The notes: a model not told the origin generated them from the letters alone. A DNA stretch of 64,000 nt from Mycoplasmatales bacterium (GCA_965196725.1 OZ239770.1:78018-142017), one strand, 5' to 3'. Counted from the stretch's first letter, positions 1,820 to 64,000 are shown. Numbers and translations: made by a program.

Positions 1820-2246
1820 CGGGTTTACTTCGAAATGATTGTTGAATTTTTTCCATCTTACATTCTAATTGATAATGGAAACGAAATTTTTGAAAGAGAA
1901 CCCGAGCAAGGAAATTTTCAAAGGTTTTTTTGTTTTGGCGGAATTTACCGGTTAAAAGAGCGGATTGATTGCTTTTAATTTCGACAATAATTTGGTCACG
2001 ATTTTTGAAAAGAACTTTCAGCTTTTCAATCTGAATTTCATATTCAGTTTGAATAATATCAAACAAAACAGTTTCAATTGTTTTAATAATCGCGGCAAAA
2101 TTATAAAATAAAACTGTATAGCGCCGGAAAAAAACCAATTTTTCTGTTCTTAAAAGCGAATAAAAAACTGGTTGATCCGGTTTTTGTAAACGACGTTGAA
2201 ATTTTTTTATTTGGAAGAAAAAGAAAAAAACCTTTTCAATGTTCAT
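1800..2246 (-). CDS. Hypothetical basic 148-aa protein; overlaps yidC 3' end by 40 nt and tatD 5' end by 20 nt; contains the perfect match to CRISPR spacer 16
   Basis: Uninterrupted ORF (ATG 2246, TAA 1800-1802) in the same orientation as its neighbours. I recognise no family motif. Confidence 0.5.
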   Translation of the reverse strand: MNIEKVFFFFFQIKKFQRRLQKPDQPVFYSLLRTEKLVFFRRYTVLFYNFAAIIKTIETVLFDIIQTEYEIQIEKLKVLFKNRDQIIVEIKSNQSALLTGKFRQNKKTFENFLARVLFQKFRFHYQLECKMEKIQQSFRSKPDAQIIN

Positions 2247-18392: not shown

Positions 18393-19811
18393 ATGTCAAG
18401 AAGCAAAAATATTAATTTTTATCAAAAATATCGTCCTAATACTTTTGCCACTATTGCCGGGCAAGAAGTAATTGTTAAAATTTTACGACAACAAATTAAA
18501 CACGAAGCAATTCATCATGCTTATCTTTTCTCTGGCAAACAAGGGATTGGTAAAACAACAACAGCGCGTGTTTTCGCTAAAACAATTAATTGTTTAAATT
18601 TGTCGTCTGCTACTGATCGTTGTTTTAAATGCTCATGATGTTTAAAATTAGAAGAACAAACTTTAGATATTAATGAAATTGATGCCGCTTCCAATAATGG
18701 AGTGGAAAACATTCGCGCTTTAAAAGATGATGCTGTTTTATCACCTATTTTAGGGCGTTTTAAAGTTTACATTATTGATGAGGTTCATATGTTATCCAGG
18801 AGCGCTTTCAACGCGTTTCTAAAAATTTTAGAAGAACCACCACGTCATGTTGTGTTTATTTTAGCAACCACCGAATTAGAAAAACTTCCCGCAACAATTG
18901 TTTCGCGTTGTCATCATTTTCGATTTCGGAACTTAAATTATGAAAAATTAAGTTTAATTCTGGCGAAAATCGCCCAAAATGAAAAGATTAAAATCGCCAC
19001 CACCGCCTTACAAGCAATTGCTAAACATACTAATGGTGCGGTTCGAGATGCCTTAAATTTACTTGAGCAAGCTGCCACTTTTTTTTCTGCTGATCAATTA
19101 ATTGATCTGAAAGCAATTAATCAACTACTTGGAACAATGGCCCAAGATCAAGTTTATAATCTGTTTGAACCCCTTTTGACCCGCCATTTTACTAAAATTT
19201 GACCGGTCCTTGACCGCTGAAAAATTCAAAATGTTAACTTTGCGCAAATGGCTGAAAAAATGGTTAAATTTTGCAATGATGTTCGCATTCAAAATCTTTT
19301 TCAACAAACCGTTCCTTTTAAGCGTTTCCCTCTTTTCCAACCCTGAACGGCGCGTGATTTCATAATTTTAGAAAAAATTGCCTCTCTCATCGTTGCTGAT
19401 TTAAGCAATTTTCAATTAAATATCGATCCCAAAATCATGTTTGAAAATTTGATTTTAAAGATTATTCAAATCTTGCCGCCGCTTTATCATTTTGAGGAGC
19501 AAAAATATCTCCTACTGCTAAGAAACAATGATGTTGAATTAAAAAAGCGTTTAAAAAAAACCCGAAAAACATTAACGCCTTCTCTTGTTGTTTTTCAAGA
19601 AATTAAACTGCTTGCTGCCACTTCAAAAGCATTATTGTTGCTTATTACGGAAGAAGTTTTAAAATTTTTGCAAGATTCGGATGGAAAACAACAGTTTGAA
19701 CAATTTTGTCTGCTGAATAAATGAGAAAAATATCAGATTAATTTCATTTCTTTTCGGCAACGTGATTTTATTAAAACTAATTTCACCTCCACTTTTCCAA
19801 AACAACAATAA
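18393..19811 (+). CDS. dnaX: DNA polymerase III subunit gamma/tau
   Basis: GKQGIGKTTTARVFAK, IIDEVHMLS, ATIVSRCHHFRF. Three ORF pieces in one frame. Confidence 0.9.
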
Positions 19812-19827
19812 AATTTATCAAACTAAA

Positions 19828-19836
19828 TGATATAAT
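19828..19836 (+). promoter_or_regulatory. Extended -10 element TGATATAAT upstream of paralogue A
   Basis: TGnTATAAT about 118 nt upstream of ATG 19954; the same element precedes paralogue B. Confidence 0.45.
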
Positions 19837-19848
19837 TTTTGACGGCAG

Positions 19849-20618
19849 TCTGGTGATTGCTTTTTCTCAACCCAAAATGCTAGTTCATGTGGTATTTTTT
19901 GACATCCCCCGTCATTTGTTTTTTAAAAAACCGAAAACAAGGAGAAGAGTATTATGAAAGGCAAAACCTCTCTTTTTAAAAAATGGTTAGAAAAGTCAAA
20001 ACGCAATAAACTGGTAACTTTTTCCACCGTTTTTCTGATTTCAACCCTCATCATTGCGGGAAGTTTAGGAGGTTATTTTGCAACCCGTTCCGATGAAGCA
20101 ACATCGAGCAATTTACAAACAATTGCCCCTGATGATTTTATTACTAAGAAACATCTGGACGACGAATTAGCCAAAAAATTAAATCTGGCTGATCTGAATA
20201 ATCAAATTAAAGATGCCCATTCCTCCCTAAAAACTGATGCCGCATTTCAACAACATCTTGCCGATGCATTAACAACCAAATTTGCTGATTATTTGCAAAA
20301 AAGCGCTTTTAACACCGAGTTAAAAACAGCAGTGCAAAGTTTAAAAACTGATAGCACTTTTCAAACCAATTTGGCCGAAGCATTAACCGCTGAATTTACC
20401 AAATATTATTCTAAAACCAACATTGATAGTAATTTCTACACCAAAACTGCGGTTAACACCCTGCTAAATTCGTATCTGCAAAAAACCAATTTAACCGCGG
20501 AAACCAAAGCGGTTATTACCCAATTAAAAACTGATTCCCAATTTCAAACAGATATTGCGGAAGCATTAAGAAGCACATTTGATAACTACTACACCAAACC
20601 CGAAGTTGATAGCAAACT
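19849..20618 (+). repeat. Copy 1 of duplicated 5'UTR + N-terminal coding cassette
   Basis: By eye identical to 22018-22788, except for one extra T in a T-run (T5 here, T6 in copy 2) and one synonymous SNP (20130 T versus 22300 C). Confidence 0.85.
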
Positions 20619-21828
20619 AACTGCTAAAGCCGACAAAACCTATACTGATCTTGCGCTGGCGCTTAAGACCGATCAAACCTACACCGATACCGAATTAGCC
20701 AAAAAAGCCGACAAAACTGATCTCTTCGAACCTGCGGCAGTTGCCCTAGAATTAAAATCTTCTTTAACACCGCGTTTGGCAACAAAAACAGAAGTTAATG
20801 CTAAAGCTTCCAAAACTTACACTGACACCGAATTAGCCAAAAAAGCCGACAAAACTTACACTGACACCGAACTAGCAAAAAAGGCAACCACAGTTGCTTT
20901 GCAAGATAAATTAGATAAAACAAGTTATGATTTTGCTCCCTTATTTGGTCAATATGAATTTGCCACTGATACTAACACCAATAAAAAGGTTCCTCGCTTA
21001 AAAGAATATGGGAAACTTTCCCAATCTAAAACACGCTTAGCCCATTATCCGCGTGAATATTCAACGCTTGAAAGTAATTTGATATCTTACGGAATTAGTT
21101 ATCTTAAACGCGCTAATAGCAAAGTGCTAGTCCAAGGGCATCGAAAAGGATGAGTTAAAGATCCAACACCGCCAACATGAGGTGATAATGCACTAACGTT
21201 GAATGCTGTTAAAGGTTATGATTGAAGCGCTTTGATCAATCAAGGAGAAACAAAAGACATTAGTGCTCAAACAGTTCCTAAAAGATTTTTTAAAGGCGAT
21301 AAATTAGTTATTAAATTCCATATACATTTGACTAATCATGGTCGAAATGGTTTATTTTTAATCTTTAAATATAATGGCGTTAATTTGAAAATTACAGATG
21401 CTAAATGGTGAAACCGTTGGCAGGGTTCTTCAGGAATTGATAGCGAATGAGCACGTAATACAACAAAAAGTGATTGTAATACTGTCGCTGTAGCACAATT
21501 TAATCCACTCAAATACAAATATCTCGAAGGTACATTTGTCATTCTTTTTGAAGATAATATTTACATTAGAATGGCAAATGGTGGTGTCGATAACGAAACT
21601 GATATTAACCATACAATGGCGCAAGCAACATTAGAATATCCTACAAATTACGATGATAATGTTGGAATTGAATTCTCTGGAATTGAAATTTCAGAAACGG
21701 CGTGGGCGACAGGAGCTCCTACAAGCAGTGGTTCTTCTCATAAATTTGATGTTGGAAGTAGAATTATTTTGAAGGAAAGTCCTTTTAACAAACAATTAGC
21801 TGCTGTTACACCAGGAGTAGAATTTTAA
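19954..21828 (+). CDS. Membrane-anchored repeat protein, paralogue A (624 aa)
   Basis: N-terminal TM anchor ..LVTFSTVFLISTLIIAGSLGGYF.. Helical LKTDxxFQxxLAEAL repeats and KADKTYTDTELAKK modules. Trp-rich C-terminal domain read through 6 TGA codons, frame checked. Confidence 0.75.
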
Positions 21829-21997
21829 TTTTTCACTGCTTAATTTTAAGTAACAACAAAACAGTTTAAACCAACTTTTCTAACCGAAAAATGTGATTAA
21901 AATCAAGCGCATGTGGTTGTTTTTTCTAATGTAAATGGAATTAATCAAACTTTTTAGTTCTCGTTAAAATATCAAAAATAGAAATATTTAAGCTTGA

Positions 21998-22006
21998 TGA
22001 TATAAT
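21998..22006 (+). promoter_or_regulatory. Extended -10 element TGATATAAT upstream of paralogue B
   Basis: Same sequence and spacing as at 19828. Confidence 0.45.
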
Positions 22007-22017
22007 CATGGCAGCAA

Positions 22018-22788
22018 TCTGGTGATTGCTTTTTTCTCAACCCAAAATGCTAGTTCATGTGGTATTTTTTGACATCCCCCGTCATTTGTTTTTTAAAAAA
22101 CCGAAAACAAGGAGAAGAGTATTATGAAAGGCAAAACCTCTCTTTTTAAAAAATGGTTAGAAAAGTCAAAACGCAATAAACTGGTAACTTTTTCCACCGT
22201 TTTTCTGATTTCAACCCTCATCATTGCGGGAAGTTTAGGAGGTTATTTTGCAACCCGTTCCGATGAAGCAACATCGAGCAATTTACAAACAATTGCCCCC
22301 GATGATTTTATTACTAAGAAACATCTGGACGACGAATTAGCCAAAAAATTAAATCTGGCTGATCTGAATAATCAAATTAAAGATGCCCATTCCTCCCTAA
22401 AAACTGATGCCGCATTTCAACAACATCTTGCCGATGCATTAACAACCAAATTTGCTGATTATTTGCAAAAAAGCGCTTTTAACACCGAGTTAAAAACAGC
22501 AGTGCAAAGTTTAAAAACTGATAGCACTTTTCAAACCAATTTGGCCGAAGCATTAACCGCTGAATTTACCAAATATTATTCTAAAACCAACATTGATAGT
22601 AATTTCTACACCAAAACTGCGGTTAACACCCTGCTAAATTCGTATCTGCAAAAAACCAATTTAACCGCGGAAACCAAAGCGGTTATTACCCAATTAAAAA
22701 CTGATTCCCAATTTCAAACAGATATTGCGGAAGCATTAAGAAGCACATTTGATAACTACTACACCAAACCCGAAGTTGATAGCAAACT
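22018..22788 (+). repeat. Copy 2 of duplicated 5'UTR + N-terminal coding cassette
   Basis: See 19849-20618. Confidence 0.85.
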
Positions 22789-24820
22789 TGCTCCCAAAGC
22801 CGACAAGACCTACACCGACACCGAATTAGCAAAGAAAGCCGATAAATCTTCAGTGTATACAAAGACCGATCTTGATACAAAGTTTCAAGAAGCACGAACA
22901 GTAATTAAAAAAAATATTTCAAATTTCACGCTTTTTTCTGATATTTCGGCAATCAAAATAAATACCAAGGTTTATTTTAATTTTGCCGGGACTTTTACAC
23001 CCACCGAATTAGAAACAAAACTTTTTATTGGAACACTAATTGTAAAGCATGCTGGTGATGAAGTTTATCTTGGTGAACTTTTTGATTACAGCGGCACCAA
23101 AGCCGACGGTTTTTATAAATTAACAGTTAGAGATACATTTGTTAACGGCACATCACAAGATAAAGTTAATTTCATTGCCACCAAAATGCCAATTGTTGAA
23201 TTTCAAAATTATTATTCAAAAACTGATGTGGATAGCAAACTTACTCCCAAAGCCGACAAAACCTATACTGATTTTGCGCTGGCGCTTAAGACCGATCAAA
23301 CCTACACCAACACTGAACTAGCAAAGAAGGCCGACAAAACTGATCTCTTCGAACCTGCGGCAGTTGCCCTAGAATTAAAATCTTCTTTAACACCGCGTTT
23401 GGCAACAAAAACAGAAGTTAATGCTAAAGCTTCCAAAACTTACACTGACACCGAATTAGCCAAAAAAGCTGACCAAACCTACACCGACACCGAATTAGCA
23501 AAGAAAGCCGATAAAACAACCTCTTACACCAAAACCGAAGTTGATGCCAAACTTACTCCCAAAGCCGACAAAACCTACACCGATACCGAACTAAATAAAA
23601 AGATTGAATATATTGAGGTTAATTTAGACACTCCTATTATTAACGGTAAAACAATTGGCGATTGAACAAGCAATGAATTGTCAGGACTTGATGGTTTGTT
23701 TAGTACTGGTAAAGTTTATAAAATTATTCATAACAGTAAAACCTTTCTTGTTCGTGCAGCAAACGAAATCAAAACTGCAAGCGAAATTGAGAATACTTTT
23801 TATGGCATGCAACTTGATGATTCCACAAATAAATACGGAATAGTAACAATTGCAATTGCAATCAAAAATTCAACGTCAACATTTAAAGTTCAATCAATTA
23901 ATTTTGAACAATTGAAAATCTTACTTAATCAAGCAGATTTTTATTACGATCCAATCAACAAAAACTATTTAGAAAATAGTTTAATTTTTAAAAACATTGA
24001 CGCTGCCCAACAAAATGTTTTATCGCGTAAAGAACGTTCGTATACAACTCATGCTGCCTTATTAGCAACTCAGGGAATTCAGTATCGTCTTTTAGGTCCT
24101 ACTCTAGCAGTAAACGGAGATTCTAAAATGGAAATTGTGGGCGCTCACAATGTGTGATATAAAAATACAATTAAACCTAAATGGTATACCAATAAATTTG
24201 AACCCAATGCTTATTATGGTTGAGATCAGGAAGCTGAAATCGGTTACGGAGAAAGCAACACGCTGCCTAATGCGGAAACTAAAAAATTCTATAAAGGTGA
24301 TATTATTCACTTTAAAATCCATGGTCATACTAACATTTTAGGAAAATGAGCAGGTATTAAATTTGTTTTAAAAGATAAAAACAACACTGAGTTCGCTACA
24401 ACTGATGCAATATTTTCCAATGACTATGGTTCTAGAAATGAAATTCATAAGTTTACAAGTCAATCAAAAACAAACTCGTCTCATTTAATGGTAAATCTTT
24501 TTGCTTCTAAATATTTTGAATTTAGCGGAAAAATTAGTTTTGAAAATGCCCGAATTTATATTTCAGCAGTTGGATGAATTCATCAGCTAGGACATGATAT
24601 GAATACTATTAGCACTGATATGGCATTAGCTTATCCAGGCGGTTTTGCTGATGATGGCATTACATTGGCTGCTATTGAAATTGGCGAAGTAGGAACTATG
24701 AGCACACTTGAAATAACTGGAACTGCTGTTGAATGAAGTGCGGGCAGTCGAATTTTTTTAAGAGATGATATTAGCAACAGACAGTTAAAAATTGTCAAAA
24801 AAACCCTAATTAATAACTAG
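22124..24820 (+). CDS. Membrane-anchored repeat protein, paralogue B (898 aa)
   Basis: First 221 aa identical to paralogue A. Has extra internal domains. C-terminal head is distantly similar to A (KKFYKGDIIHFKIH versus KRFFKGDKLVIKFH; AGSRIFLRDD versus VGSRIILKES). Frame checked to TAG at 24818. Confidence 0.75.
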
Positions 24821-54237: not shown

Positions 54238-57200
54238 ATGAATAGTAAATTAAAATATTATCTTGGCTTGGATCTAGGAATTTCTTCGGTTGGTTGAGCG
54301 ATTATGGCTGAAGATCCCAAAACCGCCAAACATACCTTATATGATTTTGGCGTTCGTTTGTTTGATGTGCCGGAAAATAGGGATAAACAATCAAATGCGA
54401 GTTTAAGACGTGATTTACGATCAAATCGTCGCTTAATTCGCCGCCGCAAGCATCGTATTTTAATGTTGAAAAGATTTCTATCCAGAATAAAATTTTTGAC
54501 AGAAGATCAATTTCAAACTGAATTTAACTTAAAATCAACAAACAAATTAATTAAAAAAGATGGTCGTTGAACAACAGAAACTGGATATTATAATACTTAT
54601 GTTTTAAAGGTTAAAGGTTTAACGGAGAAATTAGACAAACCTGAGTTATATTCTGTTTTATTAAATTATGCCAAAAAACGTGGTTATCTTAATAAATTTG
54701 CAATTGAAAATGATAAAAAACTTACAAAAACAGAACAATCAAATCAAAACAAAGCAATTGAAGAAGCAGATAATTTAGTTAAGAATTATGATGATTCAAT
54801 AGCAAAAGCAATTGTTTATGATAAAAGATTTGCCTTTGTTAAAAATGTAAAAGATCCGAAAACAAAAATTTTAATTGCTAACAACAAATCAGAGCTTGTG
54901 GAATTTCAAGGAAAAATGATTAATCGTTATCTTTTGGAAAAAATTTCCGCCAAAGAAGCAGAAAATGCTAAAACTAGTCAGTTTAATTGATTATTTGCTC
55001 GTCGCGATTATAGAAAAGAGTTACAGAATCTTCTTTTATATCAAAGTCAATTTCATCCAGAATTAAACACTAATAATTGTGATCAGATTATTGATATTAT
55101 TTTTCAAACTCGCGACTTTGAAATGGGTGCTAAATGCCGTGATTGTATTAAAAATATGATTGATAAAACAGAAGATTATATTGCGAATACAAACAATATT
55201 AGAAACTGTAAAAGACTAGATTGTTCGAATTTTGGTAATTTTTGAGATCTAAAAGGAAAATGTCACTTTTATCCCGAGGAAAGACGCCAAACAAAGGCTT
55301 CAGTAACATACATTATTTTTTATTTTATTAATGAATTATCAAAAATTTGAAGTTTTCTTGAACAGCGCAAAAACAGTAAATTAAAATTTACAGCTGCTGA
55401 TAAAAATGAAGTTTTATCTAGTTTATTTTTTAATGAATGAAAAACACATGCGCAAGCTTTGAAAATAATTCAACAAAAAATTAGTGAAACCTCAATATGA
55501 CGAGATTATGGAGATAAAAATTATTTTGATAAGAAGAAATATCCGATTTGAAAAGAAGATACAAAAGATGAGCAAACAGGTTTATCTTTTAAAAAACCAA
55601 TTTTATTACAAGCATGTTCTAAAATTCCTGCTTTAACATCCCAATTGAAACAGATCGAATTAACATCAAACAAGGTTTTTAATTGGGAGCAAAATATTAT
55701 TGAAAAAATAGGAGAAACCTGCTCGCTTTGAAAAACACCAATAAGAAGGGAATACGCATTAAAAAAACTGTTTTTATCAAAAAATATCGGTTTGAATAAA
55801 GAAGAATTTGCTCTTCTTCTTAAAGAATTGAAAGAAATAGAAGCATCTCCGGGGAACGCATCCGCAAAATATATGCAAGAAGCTATTAGAGATTATTTTG
55901 ATAAAGGCACATTATATGGTGATTTTGCCTGAAATTTTCAAAAAAATCATAACACTATCAAAAACAAAATTGTTAAAAACCAAACCATTTTTGCTCATTT
56001 TATCGATAAAGATATGATGTCGAATCCAGTTGTTATGCGGGCAATTAGTCAGACACGTAAAATTCTCAAAGCACTGCATCAAAATATTCAATTTGAATCT
56101 ATTGTTGTTGAAGTAGCAAGAGATTTGTATTCTACCCCTGAACAACGCAACGCTATTGAGAAAATAAATATAAATAATTATAACGAAAAAAAACGAATCA
56201 TTGAAAGGTTAAAAAAACGTGGTTTTGAAAACATTACTAAACGGAAAATTTTAGAATACAGTTTATGAGAACAACAGAAAGGAATCTGTATCTACAGTGG
56301 TAAACCAATTGATTTTAACCCTTCTCCTAATGTAGTATGAGAAATTGATCATATTATTCCTCAGAGTTTATGTCAAAATGATACAGCGACTAATAAAGTT
56401 CTTGTTTTGAGGACAGAAAATCAAAGTAAAGGCAAAAAAATTCCTTATTGATGATTGCAAGGTAAAAATTGATCAGATTTTTCTTCTCGTGTCAAATCAT
56501 TAAAATTACCTAAAGTTAAAACTAATCTTTTGTTAGCAAAAACTGTTGAAGAGGCAATTGAAGCTTTTTCTAGTCGTAATTTAAATGATACGCGTTATAT
56601 TTCTAAGTGAATTTCTAACTATATTAAAAGTGAAATTAGTCACTTTAATTTACCAACAAAAGTTTTTGTAGTTCCTGGTGCTTTAGTCTCTCATCTTCGC
56701 AGAAGTTGATTACGACAGTCGGCATGAGGATTATATCAAAAAGTTCGTGATATTACTCCTTATCATCACGCAATCGATGCCATTGTTATTTGTCAATTTA
56801 AAAAACAAATGGATATTCAATTAGCAGTTGATTTATTGAAACTAAATCAAATAAGATGGAAAAACATTAGTGAAAGCGAAAAAAAAGCAGAAGAAAAACA
56901 GTTTCTTGAAGTAAGTCAAAAAACCGCTAATATTCTTGAAAAAGCTTTTGGTAAGCAAGATGTTGATGAATATTCTAAAAAAATCAAAGAGGCATCTCGA
57001 AAAACTTTTTTGATGTTTGATTTTTATATTTCTAATTTGAAAGAAGAAGTTGAGAAAAGAATTCCCGTGAAATTAAAAAAAGTCGACTGTGAATGCCGAA
57101 AAAGAAGTATTTCTTCACTTTCAACCCCTTCGCCAGTTGATAATTGCCGAATTTGTTATGGAAGCAAAAAAATTCCTAGATATGACAGAATTTTGAATGT

Positions 57201-57942
57201 GGATGAATTTTATAACGAAAATTCTGAACTTTCAAATTCAATTTACATTAATTTTCGATACCCGCACATTTCACACATGATAAATCATAAAGTTCCCAAA
57301 CGAATTAACAGCAGTGAAAAAATAGGTTTCTTTTTTACAGGTTATACAAAAACAAAAAAAATGATATTTGAAAAAGCAAAAAACAAACTTTTCAGAATTT
57401 GATTTAAAAATCGCAAATTAAAATTGGAAGATTTGAATTTAAAGTTAGATTTCAAGTATGTAAAAGAAAAAGATCTACAAAGTTGATTGAACGAATTTAG
57501 CAGTGAAAATCGTGATTTTTTGGTTAAAACATCTAAAACAGGAGATCTTTTGGGGGTTATACCTATAAGTCGATTTTTTGGCTTAGAAATTAAAAAAGAT
57601 AAATTAGTGTGGTTAACAAACAAAACCGCTCAAGAATATGCGAAGAAAAACATCATCCATAAATCATTACATAAGATTTTAATTCCCAATAATTTGGTGG
57701 AGTATTATGATCCAAAACTTAGAAAAAATATTATTAAAGTGTTTAAATCACGTAAAGACAAAGATAAAGCATATTTACATATCAATGGTTTAATGAAAAC
57801 CGATGAAAAAACTATTTTTGGATTTAAAAATTCCACTGAAACACTTAAGAGAATTTCTAATGATTCACTTAAAATTATAAGAGTTAATTTGTTGGGTGAT
57901 TTATTGACCAAAAAAAATATATTTACTTCTATTAAAAGATAA
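54238..57942 (+). CDS. cas9: CRISPR-associated endonuclease Cas9 (1234 aa)
   Basis: RuvC-I YYLGLDLGISSVGWA; Arg-rich bridge helix RRDLRSNRRLIRRRKHR; HNH WEIDHIIPQS..NKVLV; RuvC-III YHHAIDAIVI. Whole frame translated: no TAA/TAG, many TGA=Trp. Confidence 0.95.
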
Positions 57943-57958
57943 GAAATTACTATCTACT

Positions 57959-58023
57959 GTTTTTATTCTATTAAAAATGGCGACTGAATCAAGCGGTGAT
58001 AGTTGAAAATGGACTAGTTTTTT
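57959..58023 (+). ncRNA. tracrRNA candidate (anti-repeat plus short tail and T6)
   Basis: 57959-57989 is the perfect reverse complement of repeat nt 6-36. 57990-57994 (CAAGC) extends pairing over nt 1-5 with one mismatch and one G-U. Tail GGTGATAGTTGAAAATGGACTAG ends in TTTTTT at 58018-58023. Strand is inferred (see findings). Confidence 0.7.
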
Positions 58024-58053
58024 GTTAAAATTAAGGTAATTGTTTGATGTGAA

Positions 58054-58389
58054 ATGATTGTTAAGTCACGGTTACGCATGATGCGAATTCTTTTAATGTA
58101 TGATTTGCCCAGCACAACCAAAAAAGCTCAGCAAATCTATCGTGAATTTAATGGTTTTCTTCTTAAAAATGGTTTTTATATGTTACAAGAATCAGTTTAT
58201 TGCTGTTTTGCAAAAAGTTATATGACAGCCAAATTAATTGTGACAAAGATTAAGAAAAACAGTCCGATTCTAGGTGACGTGCGTTGTTTAATAATTACCG
58301 AAAAACAATATCAGGAGATCAGTTTTTTTAGTGGAAAACCCAGTTTTCAGGAAGAATTGTTTAACCCGGAACCCATCTTAGAAATTTAA
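58054..58389 (+). CDS. cas2: CRISPR-associated endoribonuclease Cas2
   Basis: ..RMMRILLMYDLPSTTKKAQQIYREFNGFLLKNGFYMLQESVY..ITEKQY.. This pattern matches type II-A Cas2 (MRMILMFDMP..FRKFL..G..QFSVY..TEKQF). Confidence 0.85.
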   Translation: MIVKSRLRMMRILLMYDLPSTTKKAQQIYREFNGFLLKNGFYMLQESVYCCFAKSYMTAKLIVTKIKKNSPILGDVRCLIITEKQYQEISFFSGKPSFQEELFNPEPILEI

Positions 58390-58391
58390 AC

Positions 58392-59573
58392 ATGAAAACA
58401 ATTGAAATTAGTAACCAACTTTTTGAAAAGCAAAAAATTACCTTTGTTAATAAAATTGCGATTATTACCGGGCAAAATCGAGCGGGGAAAACGATGTTGC
58501 TAGATCAAATTGCAAGCGGTTTAGAAGGAAATAGCTTGCAAGTTTTGGTTGATAATCGAATGGTGAAAAAAGGGGAGTTTCAGGTTGTTTATTTAACAGA
58601 TGATCGCCAATTTAATGAAGAAATTAAATTAACCAAAACAAGTCGGTTTCGGAATCAATTAATTAATCGAATTAATAAAACTTTAATTCACAACGAAAAT
58701 TATTTGAATTTAAATCAACAAATTGAAGAATTGGCGGAAAAAATTAAAACAATTACTAATTTGGCAATTAGTCCAAACGAAACAGCATTTACGACTAAAA
58801 AAATTAAATTAACATTTGATACATCAAAAGTCAATCTGGAAAAAATTGTTGATAAATTACTCGAAATTGATTTAATCGATCAGCAAACGCAAACCCGGTT
58901 GGACGAAAAACATTTCAATAACTTTTTGTTAAGAATGATTGTTTTTAATATTTTGCTGACCGGATTAGATTGAGAAGATAAGCAACGTCCAATCGTAATT
59001 TTAGTTGATAATCCGGCGGTTTATGCGAATTATCAAACTTTAACTGAGTTTGCCTTTGAATTAAAAAAACTCCTCAAATTTCCCCATTTATATCTTTGTT
59101 TAGCCACCGGAAACGCCGAATTGGTTGCAAGTTTAAACTGTGATTTAGAAGCTATTCATTTGATTAAAGAACGTGAAATCATTGCTTTTAGAGGATATGA
59201 GGAAATTATCGAAGAAGCAATTGCGCTTTTTAGTTTTATTAGCAACAATGACTATAAAGATTGGCAACAATTTAAAATTAATTTAAAAAATGTGTTGGAA
59301 AAAGCCGATTTTGAACGTGAATTTAGTTTATTTTGAAACACGGAAACGATTAACTGGTTTAAAATGCTTTACGCTAGTAAAATTGTTTTTGCGGCGGAAA
59401 AAGAAATAATTAATTTAGATGATTATGTTAGCAAAAACTTTACCTTGATCATTCGAACTAATCTTTTAAGACAAATTATTCTTTTTTTATACGCAAAGAA
59501 TTTGAATATTCCTGTGATTTTTAGTACAAATTTGCAGGCAAAACTAAAAAAAATTAGTTTTTTGTGGAACTAG
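58392..59573 (+). CDS. P-loop NTPase in the csn2 position (Csn2-like, 393 aa)
   Basis: Walker A ITGQNRAGKTML; Walker-B-like RPIVILVDNP (Asn where the catalytic Glu is expected). Three in-frame pieces joined by TGA. Lies between cas2 and the array. Confidence 0.6.
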
Positions 59574-59704: not shown

Positions 59705-62700
59705 GTTTTATTCAGTCGCCATTTTTAATAGAATAAAAACATTCTTTTATTTGAAATAAGATGGAAAAAAGTTTTATTCAGTCGCCATTTTTAATAGAAT
59801 AAAAACTTTCGCCTTCGTAAAGATGTTCCCCCGCCGGTTTTATTCAGTCGCCATTTTTAATAGAATAAAAACGTTAAATTACCAAATGATATTTTTTCAA
59901 CCGTTTTATTCAGTCGCCATTTTTAATAGAATAAAAACACAATTCGGCGATCGTTTGAACGGTGAAGCGTTTTATTCAGTCGCCATTTTTAATAGAATAA
60001 AAACTTTCTTTTCTCAAATCGGCAAAAAATACTGGTTTTATTCAGTCGCCATTTTTAATAGAATAAAAACTTTTGCTTTGGCAAAAAAACCCTGTCCCAA
60101 GTTTTATTCAGTCGCCATTTTTAATAGAATAAAAACGGAAAAATTTAATTACATATTAGAACGACGGTTTTATTCAGTCGCCATTTTTAATAGAATAAAA
60201 ACGCGATTTGTTGGATTTGTTAGAAGTTAAGAGTTTTATTCAGTCGCCATTTTTAATAGAATAAAAACCTGTTTTTTTCAAACTACCCTTCAACCGCTGT
60301 TTTATTCAGTCGCCATTTTTAATAGAATAAAAACATGTTATTAACAAGAAAGATTTGCTCGTCAGTTTTATTCAGTCGCCATTTTTAATAGAATAAAAAC
60401 AGCAGTTCCCTGTCTCGCGTGGTGCGGGGGGTTTTATTCAGTCGCCATTTTTAATAGAATAAAAACGAAGGTTTGCTTCTCTTAAACAGACCAAAGGTTT
60501 TATTCAGTCGCCATTTTTAATAGAATAAAAACTCTTTAATTGGCGAAGTCGCGGTTGGGATTGTTTTATTCAGTCGCCATTTTTAATAGAATAAAAACCT
60601 CCTACTCCCAGTCCACCTCTTGCGCCGCGTTTTATTCAGTCGCCATTTTTAATAGAATAAAAACTTTGACACCGCGCCGATTACCGACGCGGGCGTTTTA
60701 TTCAGTCGCCATTTTTAATAGAATAAAAACATTTTGCCGCGATTATTAAAACAATTGAAAGTTTTATTCAGTCGCCATTTTTAATAGAATAAAAACTAAC
60801 AAAGTTAAAAACCGGACAAAAAGTCAGTTTTATTCAGTCGCCATTTTTAATAGAATAAAAACTTGCCGACCAAGCAAACCCCTTAATTGTTAGTTTTATT
60901 CAGTCGCCATTTTTAATAGAATAAAAACATTTATGGGTTGTTGTATTACCGTATATGGGTTTTATTCAGTCGCCATTTTTAATAGAATAAAAACCTGCTT
61001 GATCCACGGGAACCCGAACGAGTGGTTTTATTCAGTCGCCATTTTTAATAGAATAAAAACCACCTTTAAGACCTTTTTCGCCAGTGATGCGTTTTATTCA
61101 GTCGCCATTTTTAATAGAATAAAAACCTGATGGGCGGCTTCAAAGGCAGTGCGAGCGTTTTATTCAGTCGCCATTTTTAATAGAATAAAAACATTATTAC
61201 GCCCTTAATTACGGCATCCAGTGTTTTATTCAGTCGCCATTTTTAATAGAATAAAAACAACGACGCTTTATTTAGCAATAACGTGGCTGTTTTATTCAGT
61301 CGCCATTTTTAATAGAATAAAAACTAATAAATCAGTGTTAATTTTGTTTTCGGTGTTTTATTCAGTCGCCATTTTTAATAGAATAAAAACCTTTCAAAGA
61401 CGGCTACACCGTTTAAGCGCGTTTTATTCAGTCGCCATTTTTAATAGAATAAAAACAAATAAAGGAGGCGACATTAGACCCCTAAAGTTTTATTCAGTCG
61501 CCATTTTTAATAGAATAAAAACAACTTACGAAATTGAAGCAGTTTTTAACAAGTTTTATTCAGTCGCCATTTTTAATAGAATAAAAACCGCACTTAGCTA
61601 GCAAGCTTGTTTTTTGCTGTTTTATTCAGTCGCCATTTTTAATAGAATAAAAACCTTTTTAATACTTAGTATTTTTGCCTTCTGGTTTTATTCAGTCGCC
61701 ATTTTTAATAGAATAAAAACAAATAAAGATAAAGGAGGATTAGACCCTAAGTTTTATTCAGTCGCCATTTTTAATAGAATAAAAACTACGGCTTTGTCAT
61801 GTCGCCCTCTTCAAAGGTTTTATTCAGTCGCCATTTTTAATAGAATAAAAACAAAAAAAGGGCGCTTCTTTATTAACTGTTAAGTTTTATTCAGTCGCCA
61901 TTTTTAATAGAATAAAAACGTTCATTGGTGAATAAGTCCTTCGTTGAGCGTTTTATTCAGTCGCCATTTTTAATAGAATAAAAACCAGGTTTGATAAAGT
62001 AATGACACCCTTTAAGTTTTATTCAGTCGCCATTTTTAATAGAATAAAAACGATTTAGTGAGCCTTGCTTTTAACGAAGCAGTTTTATTCAGTCGCCATT
62101 TTTAATAGAATAAAAACTGAACAATGATTGTTTTTTGCTCTAATAAAGTTTTATTCAGTCGCCATTTTTAATAGAATAAAAACTTCGAAACGGGCAAGAC
62201 GGGGGAACGATAAGTTTTATTCAGTCGCCATTTTTAATAGAATAAAAACTACTTCATCTAAAACATCTCGTCCAACCAAGTTTTATTCAGTCGCCATTTT
62301 TAATAGAATAAAAACTCATTTCTCTTCAAACCATAAATAAAAAAGGTTTTATTCAGTCGCCATTTTTAATAGAATAAAAACTTTCTTGTTAATAACATAA
62401 AACGGATGGGAGTTTTATTCAGTCGCCATTTTTAATAGAATAAAAACAAGACGAACAACTTCGGCCAAGCGCGAAGAGTTTTATTCAGTCGCCATTTTTA
62501 ATAGAATAAAAACTTTTTTGCATTGAAAATTTATTAAATATGTGTTTTATTCAGTCGCCATTTTTAATAGAATAAAAACGTATTTGCTTGCTTTTGCCTT
62601 TCTGAGGACGTTTTATTCAGTCGCCATTTTTAATAGAATAAAAACTCGTAAAATTTGGTTGTTAAAATAACAATGGTTTTATTCAGTCGCCATTTTTAAT

Positions 62701-64000
62701 AGAATAAAAACCGGTTGTTGGCGGACTAGGCGCCCTTGGTGGTTTTATTCAGTCGCCATTTTTAATAGAATAAAAACTGTTAATTTTCGTTTCCATCTTA
62801 AAAGCGGGTTTTATTCAGTCGCCATTTTTAATAGAATAAAAACACCTTGTTGACCAGGCACACCTTGGATACCGTTTTATTCAGTCGCCATTTTTAATAG
62901 AATAAAAACAAAACGGCTAGGACTTCCTTTCGAAAGAACGTTTTATTCAGTCGCCATTTTTAATAGAATAAAAACTTTTGAAGCACTTTTAACCCATGAA
63001 AAAACGTTTTATTCAGTCGCCATTTTTAATAGAATAAAAACAAATAAAAAAAAAGGAGATAGACCCCTTGAGTTTTATTCAGTCGCCATTTTTAATAGAA
63101 TAAAAACGCGGACGGGCAAACGACCGACGCCGGGAATGTTTTATTCAGTCGCCATTTTTAATAGAATAAAAACGCGGGCGCTGATGAAAGGGATATTGCT
63201 TGAGTTTTATTCAGTCGCCATTTTTAATAGAATAAAAACAAAATGCGAACGCCAAGCTTAGTAGCTTAGGTTTTATTCAGTCGCCATTTTTAATAGAATA
63301 AAAACAATGAAGAAATTGTCATGATTGTTTCACCAGTTTTATTCAGTCGCCATTTTTAATAGAATAAAAACAAATAAAAAAAAAGGAGATAGACCCCTCA
63401 AGTTTTATTCAGTCGCCATTTTTAATAGAATAAAAACAAAGGGTTGAAGCATTAAGTTCGCCCGCACGTTTTATTCAGTCGCCATTTTTAATAGAATAAA
63501 AACCGGTGATTTGGTCGTTCCGTTTGAACCGCTGTTTTATTCAGTCGCCATTTTTAATAGAATAAAAACAAAAAATAGCAAATCATGAATGTTGCGCTTG
63601 TTTTATTCAGTCGCCATTTTTAATAGAATAAAAACGTTAACTCCTTTGGGGCGCTTTGCTCACTAGGTTTTATTCAGTCGCCATTTTTAATAGAATAAAA
63701 ACGACGGCGGATTAGAGACCATGATTATAACTGTTTTATTCAGTCGCCATTTTTAATAGAATAAAAACGAACATGATTTTTACTTTGACTATCAGTAATG
63801 TTTTATTCAGTCGCCATTTTTAATAGAATAAAAACCAAATGGTGGTGTTGATAATGAAACTGATAGTTTTATTCAGTCGCCATTTTTAATAGAATAAAAA
63901 CGATTAAGTCAGCCTTAATCCCTCGTTCAATGTTTTATTCAGTCGCCATTTTTAATAGAATAAAAACCTAAAATTTCGATAAACGAATCGCTTACAATGT
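59705..64000 (+). CRISPR. CRISPR array: 65 complete 36-nt repeats (GTTTTATTCAGTCGCCATTTTTAATAGAATAAAAAC) and 65 spacers; array continues past window end
   Basis: 66-nt periodicity from 59705. Spacers are 30 nt, except four of 31 nt (61853, 63636, 63769, 63968). No repeat variant noticed by eye. The last 2 nt (GT) start a 66th repeat. Confidence 0.98.

What the first reader, a model, noticed from the sequence alone, without database searches (positions are those of the whole stretch)
21575..21604. Spacer 63 matches paralogue A at 28/30 and both mismatches are synonymous third-codon positions
Spacer 63 (63836-63865, CAAATGGTGGTGTTGATAATGAAACTGATA) aligns to 21575-21604 (CAAATGGTGGTGTCGATAACGAAACTGATA). 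The differences are at 21588 (GTC versus GTT, Val) and 21594 (AAC versus AAT, Asn). The spacer's source therefore encoded the same peptide, ANGGVDNETDI. This indicates a diverged homologue of this C-terminal head domain on foreign DNA, such as a phage or ICE gene or another strain's chromosome. The surface family is thereby tied to material the CRISPR system has met. The two mismatches (positions 14 and 20 of 30) may be what spares the chromosome.
Basis: partly seen in the sequence, partly recalled or inferred. Interest (0 to 1): 0.8.

Follow-up and report, generated by a model that had tools for sequence, protein, structure and literature searches.

The report
CRISPR spacer nearly matching host fibre-head gene
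One memory unit in this tiny bacterium's CRISPR array matches one of its own surface-protein genes at 28 of 30 bases, most likely because that gene's tip domain is shared with the fibre protein of a small phage-like element that this group's CRISPR systems target; this is a well-documented case of a known phenomenon, not a new mechanism.

Summary
Spacer 63 (63836-63865) matches 21575-21604 at 28/30. Both differences are synonymous third-codon positions in a 624-aa membrane-anchored fibrous protein (paralogue A). Chance cannot explain the match.

The "foreign homologue" idea is supported only indirectly. A's C-terminal head domain is 45-47% identical to the C-terminus of 780-924-aa fibre-like proteins. 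One of these sits on a 14.9-kb repeat unit assembled about 1.8 times in a contig labelled circular. That element is hit by perfect spacers from the CRISPR array of a sister ~420-kb genome. Spacers 9, 15 and 28 of this array map to the same fibre gene, with synonymous or conservative differences. Four more spacers encode collagen-like Gly-X-Y triplets.

The exact source of spacer 63 was not found in IMG/VR, GTDB representatives, JGI metagenomes, GenBank phages or PLSDB. Known element-borne homologues are far too diverged to be the source. A closer phage copy, another paralogue or another strain's allele all remain possible.

The claim that the two mismatches spare the chromosome is not supported. 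Spacer 16 matches a chromosomal site perfectly (30/30), and the PAM is unresolved.

This is a new example of a known kind, of moderate interest.

The parts
21575..21604 (+). Chromosomal near-protospacer of spacer 63 (28/30) inside paralogue A, encoding (A)NGGVDNETD(I)
21605..21610 (+). 3' flank at the PAM position: TTAACC. It fits the sister lineage's R-Y-C at +4..+6, but not the G-T-T inferred for three protospacers of this array.
19954..21828 (+). Paralogue A: 624 aa with an N-terminal hydrophobic anchor, a repetitive stalk (YTDTELAKKADKT-type repeats) and a C-terminal head domain. Identical to database protein P0121.
21013..21825 (+). Head domain of A (aa 354-624), homologous to the C-termini of P0122/P0123 (fibre-like; P0123 on element L004, P0122 on related fragment L005) and P0124 (chromosomal, sister genome)
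22124..24820 (+). Paralogue B: 898 aa. It shares 846 nt (97% identical) with A, comprising about 150 nt of upstream sequence plus roughly the first 230 codons. Its head domain is 28% identical to A's and is not matched by the spacer.
63836..63865 (+). Spacer 63
59705..64000 (+). CRISPR array: at least 65 identical repeats GTTTTATTCAGTCGCCATTTTTAATAGAATAAAAAC with 30-31-nt spacers. It runs off the window end.
54238..57942 (+). cas9 (1234 aa). TIGR01865 scores 447 bits, and the RuvC and HNH motifs are intact.
57959..57989 (+). Candidate tracrRNA anti-repeat: 31/31 complementary to repeat positions 6-36, with a T-run near 58019. The downstream fold is weak.
58078..58389 (+). cas2 (PF09827, 3e-13). 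There is no cas1 ORF between cas9 and cas2.
58392..59573 (+). 393-aa P-loop ATPase at the csn2 position. No Csn2 model recognises it.
60731..60760 (+). Spacer 16, a perfect self-targeting spacer
2072..2101 (-). Perfect 30/30 chromosomal match of spacer 16, in an unannotated ORF between yidC and tatD. The 3' flank is CTGTTTTG.
60269..60298 (+). Spacer 9: encodes LFFSNYPSTA, a 9/10 match to fibre protein P0123 (L004 10505)
60665..60694 (+). Spacer 15: encodes FDTAPITDAG, a 10/10 match to P0123 (L004 10772). It matches 24/30 nt, and all six differences are synonymous.
61523..61552 (+). Spacer 28: maps to L004 10474-10503, in frame and 1 nt upstream of the spacer 9 site (21/30 nt)
62844..62873 (-). 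Spacer 48: encodes the collagen-like GIQGVPGQQG. Spacers 14, 21 and 46 also encode Gly-X-Y triplets.

Best explanation
Spacer 63 was most likely taken from a mobile element, probably a small phage related to the 14.9-kb element L004. The source would be a gene whose C-terminal head domain is a very close relative of the head domain of chromosomal paralogue A. A is a membrane-anchored fibrous protein built from the same stalk repeats and head domain as the fibre-like protein of these elements. The spacer cross-matches the host gene because host and element share this module. The two differences are ordinary synonymous divergence between the two copies. The chromosome is probably not cut. The likely reasons are that the flank is not a working PAM for this Cas9, that two mismatches fall inside the 20-nt guide (positions 11 and 17 from the PAM), or that the system is not cleaving at all. 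Shown here: the match, its synonymy, the homology of the domain to element-borne fibre proteins, CRISPR targeting of those elements, and other spacers of this array from the same gene. Inferred: that the actual source was such an element.
For: The match is 28/30 with 0 expected by chance. Both differences are synonymous. An exhaustive HMMER search finds only four real clusters with this head domain: A itself, P0122, P0123 and P0124. A and P0123 are 45% identical over 285 aa, E 1e-65. P0122's N-terminus hits PHROG head-tail adaptor at 1.4e-6, and P0121-P0123 share phrog_5004 stalk repeats. P0123 lies on L004, a 14,943-bp unit repeated at 99.99% identity in a contig labelled circular. The sister genome's array has spacers matching L004 at 30/30 (twice), 29/30 and 27/30, and L005 at 30/30 (twice). 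A third genome's array has seven spacers matching at 24-27/30. In this array, spacer 15 matches P0123 at 10/10 aa with six synonymous nt differences, spacer 9 at 9/10 aa, and spacer 28 lies adjacent and in frame. There were 3 hits at one or fewer aa mismatches, against 0 in 40 shuffles. Four spacers encode Gly-X-Y triplets, against 0.22 expected. L004 itself encodes a membrane-anchored collagen-like protein. If the mismatches were random spacer mutations, both would land on third-codon positions only about 10% of the time (10/30 x 9/29, my calculation).
Against: No sequence encoding ANGGVDNETDI was found outside the window. This covers IMG/VR, GTDB representative genomes, JGI metagenomes, GenBank phages and plasmids. 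The known element-borne homologues differ at this loop (QSIMDNDTDI, with one residue fewer), so a much closer copy must be postulated. The invariant D-I-N motif fixes the 3' flank as TTAAY in all homologues. That does not carry the G-T-T seen at +4..+6 of the three inferred protospacer flanks of this array. Spacer 63 has 0/10 G+C at third-codon positions, compared with 8/10 for spacer 15. The rest of the source genome (a 399-kb contig) could not be retrieved, so another paralogue cannot be excluded.
Confidence: 0.5

Rival explanations
1. The spacer came from chromosomal DNA of the same gene family: a third paralogue elsewhere in this genome, or the allele of another strain brought in by transduction, conjugation or uptake. 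It persists because the target lacks a working PAM or differs at two positions.
For: The family is multi-copy. A and B sit in tandem with 97%-identical 5' parts, which suggests ongoing gene conversion. The sister genome has at least two collagen-type genes within one 21-kb locus. Identity of 93% at the nucleotide level with 100% at the peptide level, in a loop that varies between homologues, is what alleles or recent paralogues show. The spacer's third-codon composition is host-like. Spacer 16 shows that this array does hold chromosome-derived sequence.
Against: No such copy was seen, although only 64 kb of roughly 400 kb or more could be read. Nothing in the window indicates a route for foreign chromosomal DNA, such as an ICE. 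The fibre and collagen-like spacers show that the array mostly samples the element.
Confidence: 0.25
2. The spacer was acquired from paralogue A itself. The two differences arose later. They may be escape mutations in the gene (synonymous because the protein is needed), a gene-conversion tract, or mutations in the spacer.
For: Type II-A systems do acquire self spacers, and this is normally masked by lethality (Wei et al. 2015, PMC4335292, listed). Self-targeting spacers are reported in several Mollicutes (PMC6882279). Spacer 16 is a perfect self-match. Spacer 63 lies far from the leader and is therefore old, whereas spacer 16 is younger and still perfect.
Against: One mutation in the seed or PAM would be enough to escape, but two are seen, at guide positions 11 and 17. 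Neutral drift of 2 in 10 third-codon sites implies a long time, yet all 65 repeats have stayed identical. Random spacer mutations would both be third-codon positions only about 10% of the time.
Confidence: 0.15
3. The match has no functional consequence because the CRISPR-Cas9 system no longer cleaves. Self-matches of any quality are then simply tolerated relics.
For: There is no cas1 at the locus, and the protein at the csn2 position is an unrecognised ATPase. A perfect self-match exists. The candidate tracrRNA has no convincing 3' hairpins (z = 0.45).
Against: Cas9 is full length with intact RuvC and HNH motifs and scores 447 bits on TIGR01865. The anti-repeat is 31/31 complementary to the repeat. 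All 65 repeats are identical. Sister lineages keep very large arrays with perfect matches to a co-occurring element.
Confidence: 0.1

Closest known systems
Self-targeting or near-self CRISPR spacers, including those reported in Mollicutes type II systems (Ipoutcha et al. 2019, PMC6882279; reviewed in Wimmer & Beisel 2020, PMC6990116)
   Same: An array spacer matches the cell's own chromosome outside the array. Such cases usually reflect prophage or mobile-element homology, a missing PAM, target mismatches or a degraded system. M. arthritidis has a spacer identical to its own pheT gene, which parallels spacer 16 here.
   Different: The near-match here falls in a non-prophage chromosomal gene between dnaX and tmk. 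That gene's head domain is shared with the fibre protein of an element. Cas9 looks intact, unlike in M. arthritidis.
Type II-A CRISPR-Cas9 loci (cas9-tracrRNA-cas1-cas2-csn2-array)
   Same: cas9, an anti-repeat just downstream of cas9, cas2, 36-nt repeats that start GTTTTA and end AAAAC, and 30-nt spacers.
   Different: There is no cas1 at the locus. A 393-aa P-loop ATPase stands in place of a recognisable Csn2. Sister genomes have the array inverted directly after cas9.
Phage tail-fibre or receptor-binding proteins with collagen-like stalks and a C-terminal globular head
   Same: P0122, P0123 and P0124 have Gly-X-Y stretches followed by the same head domain. A has a repetitive stalk plus the head. 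PHROG tail-fibre and head-tail-adaptor hits are present. There are weak structural hits to phage tail-fibre and collagen proteins.
   Different: A and B start with a membrane anchor rather than a virion-attachment domain, and they are chromosomal. The head domain matches no Pfam family or PDB structure.

Membership tests
Type II-A CRISPR-Cas | Cas9 effector with RuvC and HNH nuclease domains | tested here: met
   TIGR01865 scores 447 bits (cutoff 100). Pfam HNH_4 and RuvC_III match. The motifs GLDLGISSVGWA, EIDHIIP...N and HHAIDA are present.
Type II-A CRISPR-Cas | tracrRNA with an anti-repeat complementary to the CRISPR repeat | tested here: met
   57959-57989 is 31/31 complementary to repeat positions 6-36. 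The 3' structure is weak and there is no Rfam hit.
Type II-A CRISPR-Cas | Adaptation genes cas1 and cas2 next to cas9 | tested here: not met
   cas2 is present (PF09827, 3e-13). Only about 135 nt separate cas9 from cas2, with no cas1 ORF. The rest of the genome was not searched.
Type II-A CRISPR-Cas | csn2 gene | tested here: inconclusive
   The 393-aa protein at that position gives only weak P-loop/RecF-like hits and matches no Csn2 model.
Self-targeting spacer | Spacer matches own chromosome outside the array | tested here: met
   Spacer 63 matches 28/30. Spacer 16 matches 30/30.
Self-targeting spacer | Target flanked by a functional PAM, so that it is cleavable | tested here: inconclusive
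   The sister-lineage PAM is roughly N-A-A-A-T-C, from 9 protospacers. Three inferred flanks for this array share G-T-T at +4..+6. Protospacer 63 has A-C-C there. Protospacer 16 has G-T-T one nucleotide out of register. The PAM-interacting region of this Cas9 is poorly conserved relative to the sister Cas9.
Phage-derived spacer | Exact or near-exact protospacer on a phage or other mobile-element sequence | tested here: not met
   No hit for the spacer or its peptide-coding pattern in IMG/VR, GTDB representatives, JGI metagenomes, GenBank phages or PLSDB. The lineage is barely sampled, so the absence is weak evidence.
Phage fibre / receptor-binding head-domain family (P0122/P0123 type) | Significant sequence homology of the head domain | tested here: met
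   HMMER E-values are 1.6e-19 to 1.8e-16 with a 125-aa query. BLASTP gives 45% identity over 285 aa, E 1e-65. The four-sequence alignment A2 has 67 invariant columns.
Phage fibre / receptor-binding head-domain family (P0122/P0123 type) | The family member sits on a bona fide phage | tested here: inconclusive
   L004 is a 14.9-kb unit in a circular-labelled contig and is targeted by many spacers. Its large ORFs hit no PHROG, Pfam, PDB or GenBank phage entry. Only P0122's N-terminus hits a head-tail adaptor PHROG.
Phage fibre / receptor-binding head-domain family (P0122/P0123 type) | Fold comparable to known receptor-binding heads | tested here: inconclusive
   The AlphaFold2 model has mean pLDDT 49 and is beta-rich in residues 120-280. 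There is no PDB match. BFVD matches to tail-fibre and collagen proteins are weak.

The most novel reading that the evidence does not exclude
Paralogues A and B (and P0124 in the sister genome) may be domesticated, membrane-anchored copies of a phage receptor-binding fibre in ~400-kb symbiont-like Mollicutes. Host and phage would still exchange the head module. CRISPR memory against the phage copy would then impose selection on the host copy, so the two synonymous C-for-T differences would be CRISPR-driven escape changes in a host gene.
Probability: 0.12. Interest if true: 0.7.

Novelty: new member of a known kind. Interest (0 to 1): 0.42.

Why it matters
The match ties a family of surface-exposed fibrous proteins in an extremely reduced Mollicute to the fibre protein of a previously undescribed 15-kb element, to which several spacers in three related genomes' CRISPR arrays match. 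That gives a concrete handle on phage-host biology in a lineage with no cultured members. It suggests which protein the element may use as its fibre and shows that the host carries the same head module on its own membrane. It also shows that a ~400-kb genome keeps arrays of 65 to more than 150 spacers. The spacer match itself is an ordinary consequence of shared host and phage sequence, and it does not reveal a new mechanism.

Tried and rejected
- **Exact and peptide-degenerate scans.** Scans for the spacer in IMG/VR, GTDB representatives and JGI metagenomes found nothing.
- **GenBank phages and plasmids.** blastn of the spacer, megablast of the whole array and tblastn of the head domain found only chance-level hits or none.
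- **Word-indexed protein search.** It returned nothing for the head domain and even missed the protein itself, so that negative is uninformative.
- **Source genome.** It could not be fetched, so other paralogues could not be checked.
- **Spacer 15 peptide pattern.** It hit a 73% G+C actinobacterial SecA-like gene in a JGI contig at 28/30. I rejected this as a chance peptide match in a very large database; shared G+C-rich codons then inflate the nucleotide identity.
- **Head-domain structure.** The prediction had low confidence (pLDDT 49). Foldseek against PDB gave nothing usable, and BFVD gave only weak tail-fibre and collagen hits.
- **Large ORFs of L004.** PHROG, PDB and GenBank-phage searches gave nothing, so its phage nature rests on context.
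- **Extending protospacer flanks.** Overlaps between spacers (sp10/sp41, sp25/sp47, sp29/sp37, sp40/sp51) were too short or too low in complexity to define a PAM.
- **Literature.** Searches for the accession numbers found no paper.

Full report
**Observation**

The window comes from a Mollicutes-type genome with 33.9% G+C that reads TGA as Trp.

- A CRISPR array starts at 59705 and runs off the window end. It has 65 identical 36-nt repeats and 30-31-nt spacers.
- The 63rd spacer (63836-63865) matches 21575-21604 on the same strand at 28/30. No such match occurred in 100 shuffles.
- Apart from spacer 16, no other spacer matches the rest of the window better than 24/30.
- The site is in frame in a 624-codon ORF, paralogue A (19954-21828).
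- The two differences, at 21588 and 21594, are third-codon positions (GTC/GTT and AAC/AAT). The spacer's source therefore encoded the same ANGGVDNETDI.

**The CRISPR locus**

- cas9 (54238-57942) is full length. It scores 447 bits on TIGR01865 and keeps the RuvC and HNH motifs.
- Seventeen bases after its stop lies a 31-nt stretch perfectly complementary to repeat positions 6-36, which is a candidate tracrRNA anti-repeat. Its 3' part folds poorly.
- cas2 follows (PF09827), then a 393-aa P-loop ATPase that no Csn2 model recognises.
- There is no room for cas1 between cas9 and cas2.
- The repeat orientation (GTTTTA...AAAAC) and the degenerate cas9-proximal repeats of the inverted sister arrays indicate transcription on the + strand. 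The spacer as written then equals the crRNA, and the PAM lies 3' of the protospacer.
- From my own knowledge of type II systems, only the 3' 20 nt of a spacer are kept in the mature guide. The mismatches (spacer positions 14 and 20) would then be guide positions 17 and 11 from the PAM. One is PAM-distal and one sits at the edge of the seed.

**The target gene**

- A and its tandem neighbour B (22124-24820) lie between dnaX and tmk. This is ordinary chromosome, with no obvious island.
- Both proteins start with a hydrophobic anchor.
- They share 846 nt at 97% identity, made up of about 150 nt of upstream sequence plus roughly the first 230 codons.
- Both continue with stalk repeats and end in head domains that are only 28% identical to each other.
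- The spacer matches A only.

**Relatives of the head domain**

A word-indexed search found nothing, not even the protein itself. An exhaustive HMMER search of 1.84 billion cluster representatives, using the TGA-free last 125 residues, found A itself (P0121) and three real relatives.

| Protein | Length | Features | Source |
|---|---|---|---|
| P0122 | 924 aa | Non-membrane N-terminal domain, short collagen-like stretch, stalk repeats, head domain | L005, a 4.8-kb Logan contig |
| P0123 | 780 aa | Same architecture as P0122 | L004, an ENA contig labelled circular |
| P0124 | 381 aa | Membrane anchor, collagen stretch, head domain | Chromosome of a 420,644-bp sister genome |

- A is 45% identical to P0123 over 285 residues, E 1e-65.
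- P0122's N-terminal domain hits the PHROG head-tail adaptor family (1.4e-6). P0121, P0122 and P0123 all hit phrog_5004 in the stalk.
- A near-identical region to the P0124 locus, where the gene appears truncated to 160 aa, lies in CP138194.1, "MAG: Mycoplasmatota bacterium isolate Ac_bin3.5", 414,516 bp.

**The element carrying P0123**

- L004 is part of an ENA contig labelled circular. It consists of a 14,943-bp unit present about 1.8 times, and the copies are 99.99% identical.
- L005 shows the same gene order around its fibre gene.
- The large ORFs of L004 hit nothing in PHROGs, Pfam, PDB or GenBank phages. Calling it a phage is therefore an inference from its size, its circular label, the adaptor and fibre hits, and CRISPR targeting.
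- The targeting itself is clear.
  - The sister genome has an array of at least 151 repeats directly after cas9.
  - Its spacers match L004 at 30/30 (twice), 29/30 and 27/30, and L005 at 30/30 (twice).
  - A third genome (412,791-bp contig, at least 119 repeats) has seven spacers matching at 24-27/30.

**Other spacers of this array from the same gene**

- Spacer 15 matches L004 inside the fibre gene at 24/30. All six differences are synonymous, and the peptide FDTAPITDAG is identical.
- Spacer 9 encodes LFFSNYPSTA, compared with LFFSNYPATA in P0123.
- Spacer 28 maps in frame one nucleotide upstream of the spacer 9 site.
- At one or fewer amino-acid mismatches there were 3 hits, against none in 40 shuffles.
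- Four more spacers (14, 21, 46 and 48) encode Gly-X-Y triplets, against 0.22 expected. L004 carries collagen-like coding sequence in its fibre gene and in a 428-aa membrane-anchored protein.
- This array has therefore repeatedly sampled fibrous structural genes of an L004-like element.

**What this means for spacer 63**

The head-domain family does occur on DNA that these CRISPR systems target.
- The exact source was not found.
- At the spacer site the element-borne homologues read QSIMDNDTDI or QGIMDNDTDI, with one residue fewer.
- The loop is variable across the family. A source encoding the identical peptide at 93% nucleotide identity must therefore be a close relative of A, not merely a family member.
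- That source could be one of three things:
  - the fibre, or a membrane-anchored fibrous gene, of the still-unsampled phage of this organism;
  - another paralogue elsewhere in the genome, or another strain's allele;
  - A itself, followed by change.
- Synonymy argues against random decay of the spacer. The chance that both mutations land on third-codon positions is about 10%. Synonymy does not separate the other options.
- The source genome outside the window could not be retrieved.

**What spares the chromosome**

- Spacer 16 (60731-60760) matches 2072-2101 on the minus strand perfectly. The site lies in an unannotated ORF between yidC and tatD. The chromosome therefore tolerates a perfect self-match, and mismatches are not required for survival.
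- The PAM could only be approached indirectly.
  - Nine protospacers of the sister array give roughly N-A-A-A-T-C.
  - For this array, three inferred flanks all have G-T-T at +4..+6. Two come from homologous element sequence and one from the adjacency of spacers 28 and 9.
  - Protospacer 16 has G-T-T one nucleotide out of register (CTGTTT).
  - Protospacer 63 has TTAACC. This fits the sister pattern (R-Y-C) but not G-T-T.
  - The C-terminal, PAM-interacting part of this Cas9 is poorly conserved relative to the sister Cas9.
- It is therefore undetermined whether protospacer 63 has a working PAM. The mismatch explanation is possible but neither needed nor demonstrated.
- An inactive system is a further possibility. 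It is somewhat disfavoured by the intact cas9, the perfect anti-repeat and the perfectly homogeneous repeats.

**Comparison with what is known**

- Self-targeting and near-self spacers are common. They have been described in Mollicutes, including a spacer identical to a housekeeping gene in M. arthritidis (PMC6882279).
- Self-acquisition in type II-A systems is well documented (PMC4335292).
- This case is a new member of that kind. Its particular feature is that the matched host gene shares its head module with the fibre-like protein of a small element that is itself new.

**Verdict**

- The novelty of the finding itself is low and interest is moderate. Most of the interest lies in the surrounding biology: the new element, the host copies of its head domain, and the very large arrays in ~400-kb genomes.

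Noticed in passing
window 60731-60760 (spacer 16) and 2072-2101 (-): Spacer 16 matches the chromosome perfectly (30/30), in an unannotated 148-codon ORF between yidC and tatD. The 3' flank is CTGTTTTG, so the G-T-T seen at +4..+6 of the inferred protospacers lies one nucleotide out of register here.
   Followed up: partly
window 57943-58077: There is no cas1 gene between cas9 and cas2. The gap holds only the candidate tracrRNA. The protein at the csn2 position (58392-59573) is a P-loop ATPase with weak RecF-like similarity and does not match any Csn2 model.
   Followed up: partly
L002 13694-23684; L007 13705-21667: Two related ~415-kb genomes carry very large arrays (at least 151 and at least 119 repeats). 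The arrays sit directly after cas9 in inverted orientation, with the degenerate terminal repeat next to cas9. No cas1, cas2 or csn2 gene was called between cas9 and the array. Synteny upstream (arcA-arcB-dcuC-arcC-argS-cas9) is conserved with the window.
   Followed up: partly
L004 (ENA ERZ25073835 ctg53697), L005 (Logan SRR23257818): A previously undescribed 14.9-kb circular-labelled element has no detectable similarity to known phages in its large ORFs. It encodes a 780-aa adaptor/fibre-like protein and a 428-aa membrane-anchored collagen-like protein. CRISPR arrays of three related genomes target it.
   Followed up: partly
window spacers 27, 31, 51, 56 (61457, 61721, 63042, 63372): These four spacers are variants of one target (AAATAAA...GGAG...TAGACCCC, resembling a ribosome-binding-site region). 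This suggests repeated acquisition from the same site in diverging invaders.
   Followed up: no
window spacers 10 (60335) and 41 (62382): The two spacers overlap by 17 nt on opposite strands, so they come from the same invader locus. No match for that locus was found.
   Followed up: no
window 59741-63968 (all spacers): Spacer G+C content is bimodal, with peaks at 20-30% and 40-70% and a mean of 40%. The host is 34% G+C. Part of the G+C-rich class encodes Gly-X-Y collagen-like triplets (spacers 14, 21, 46, 48). Neither sister array has any Gly-X-Y spacer.
   Followed up: partly
window 19803-20648 vs 21973-22818: Paralogues A and B share 846 nt at 97% identity, including about 150 nt of upstream sequence. 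Their C-terminal heads are only 28% identical. This suggests gene conversion or a recent duplication with swapping of the head module.
   Followed up: partly
L006 3739-3767 (JGI Ga0209380_10011607): A 73% G+C actinobacterial SecA-like gene encodes the same FDTAPITDAG peptide as spacer 15 and matches it at 28/30 nt. I judged this a coincidence caused by database size and shared G+C-rich codons.
   Followed up: yes
L003 10145-10627 (CP138194.1): In the complete genome Ac_bin3.5, the P0124-type head-domain gene appears truncated or frameshifted: only a 160-aa ORF remains, against 381 aa in the near-identical ENA contig.
   Followed up: no
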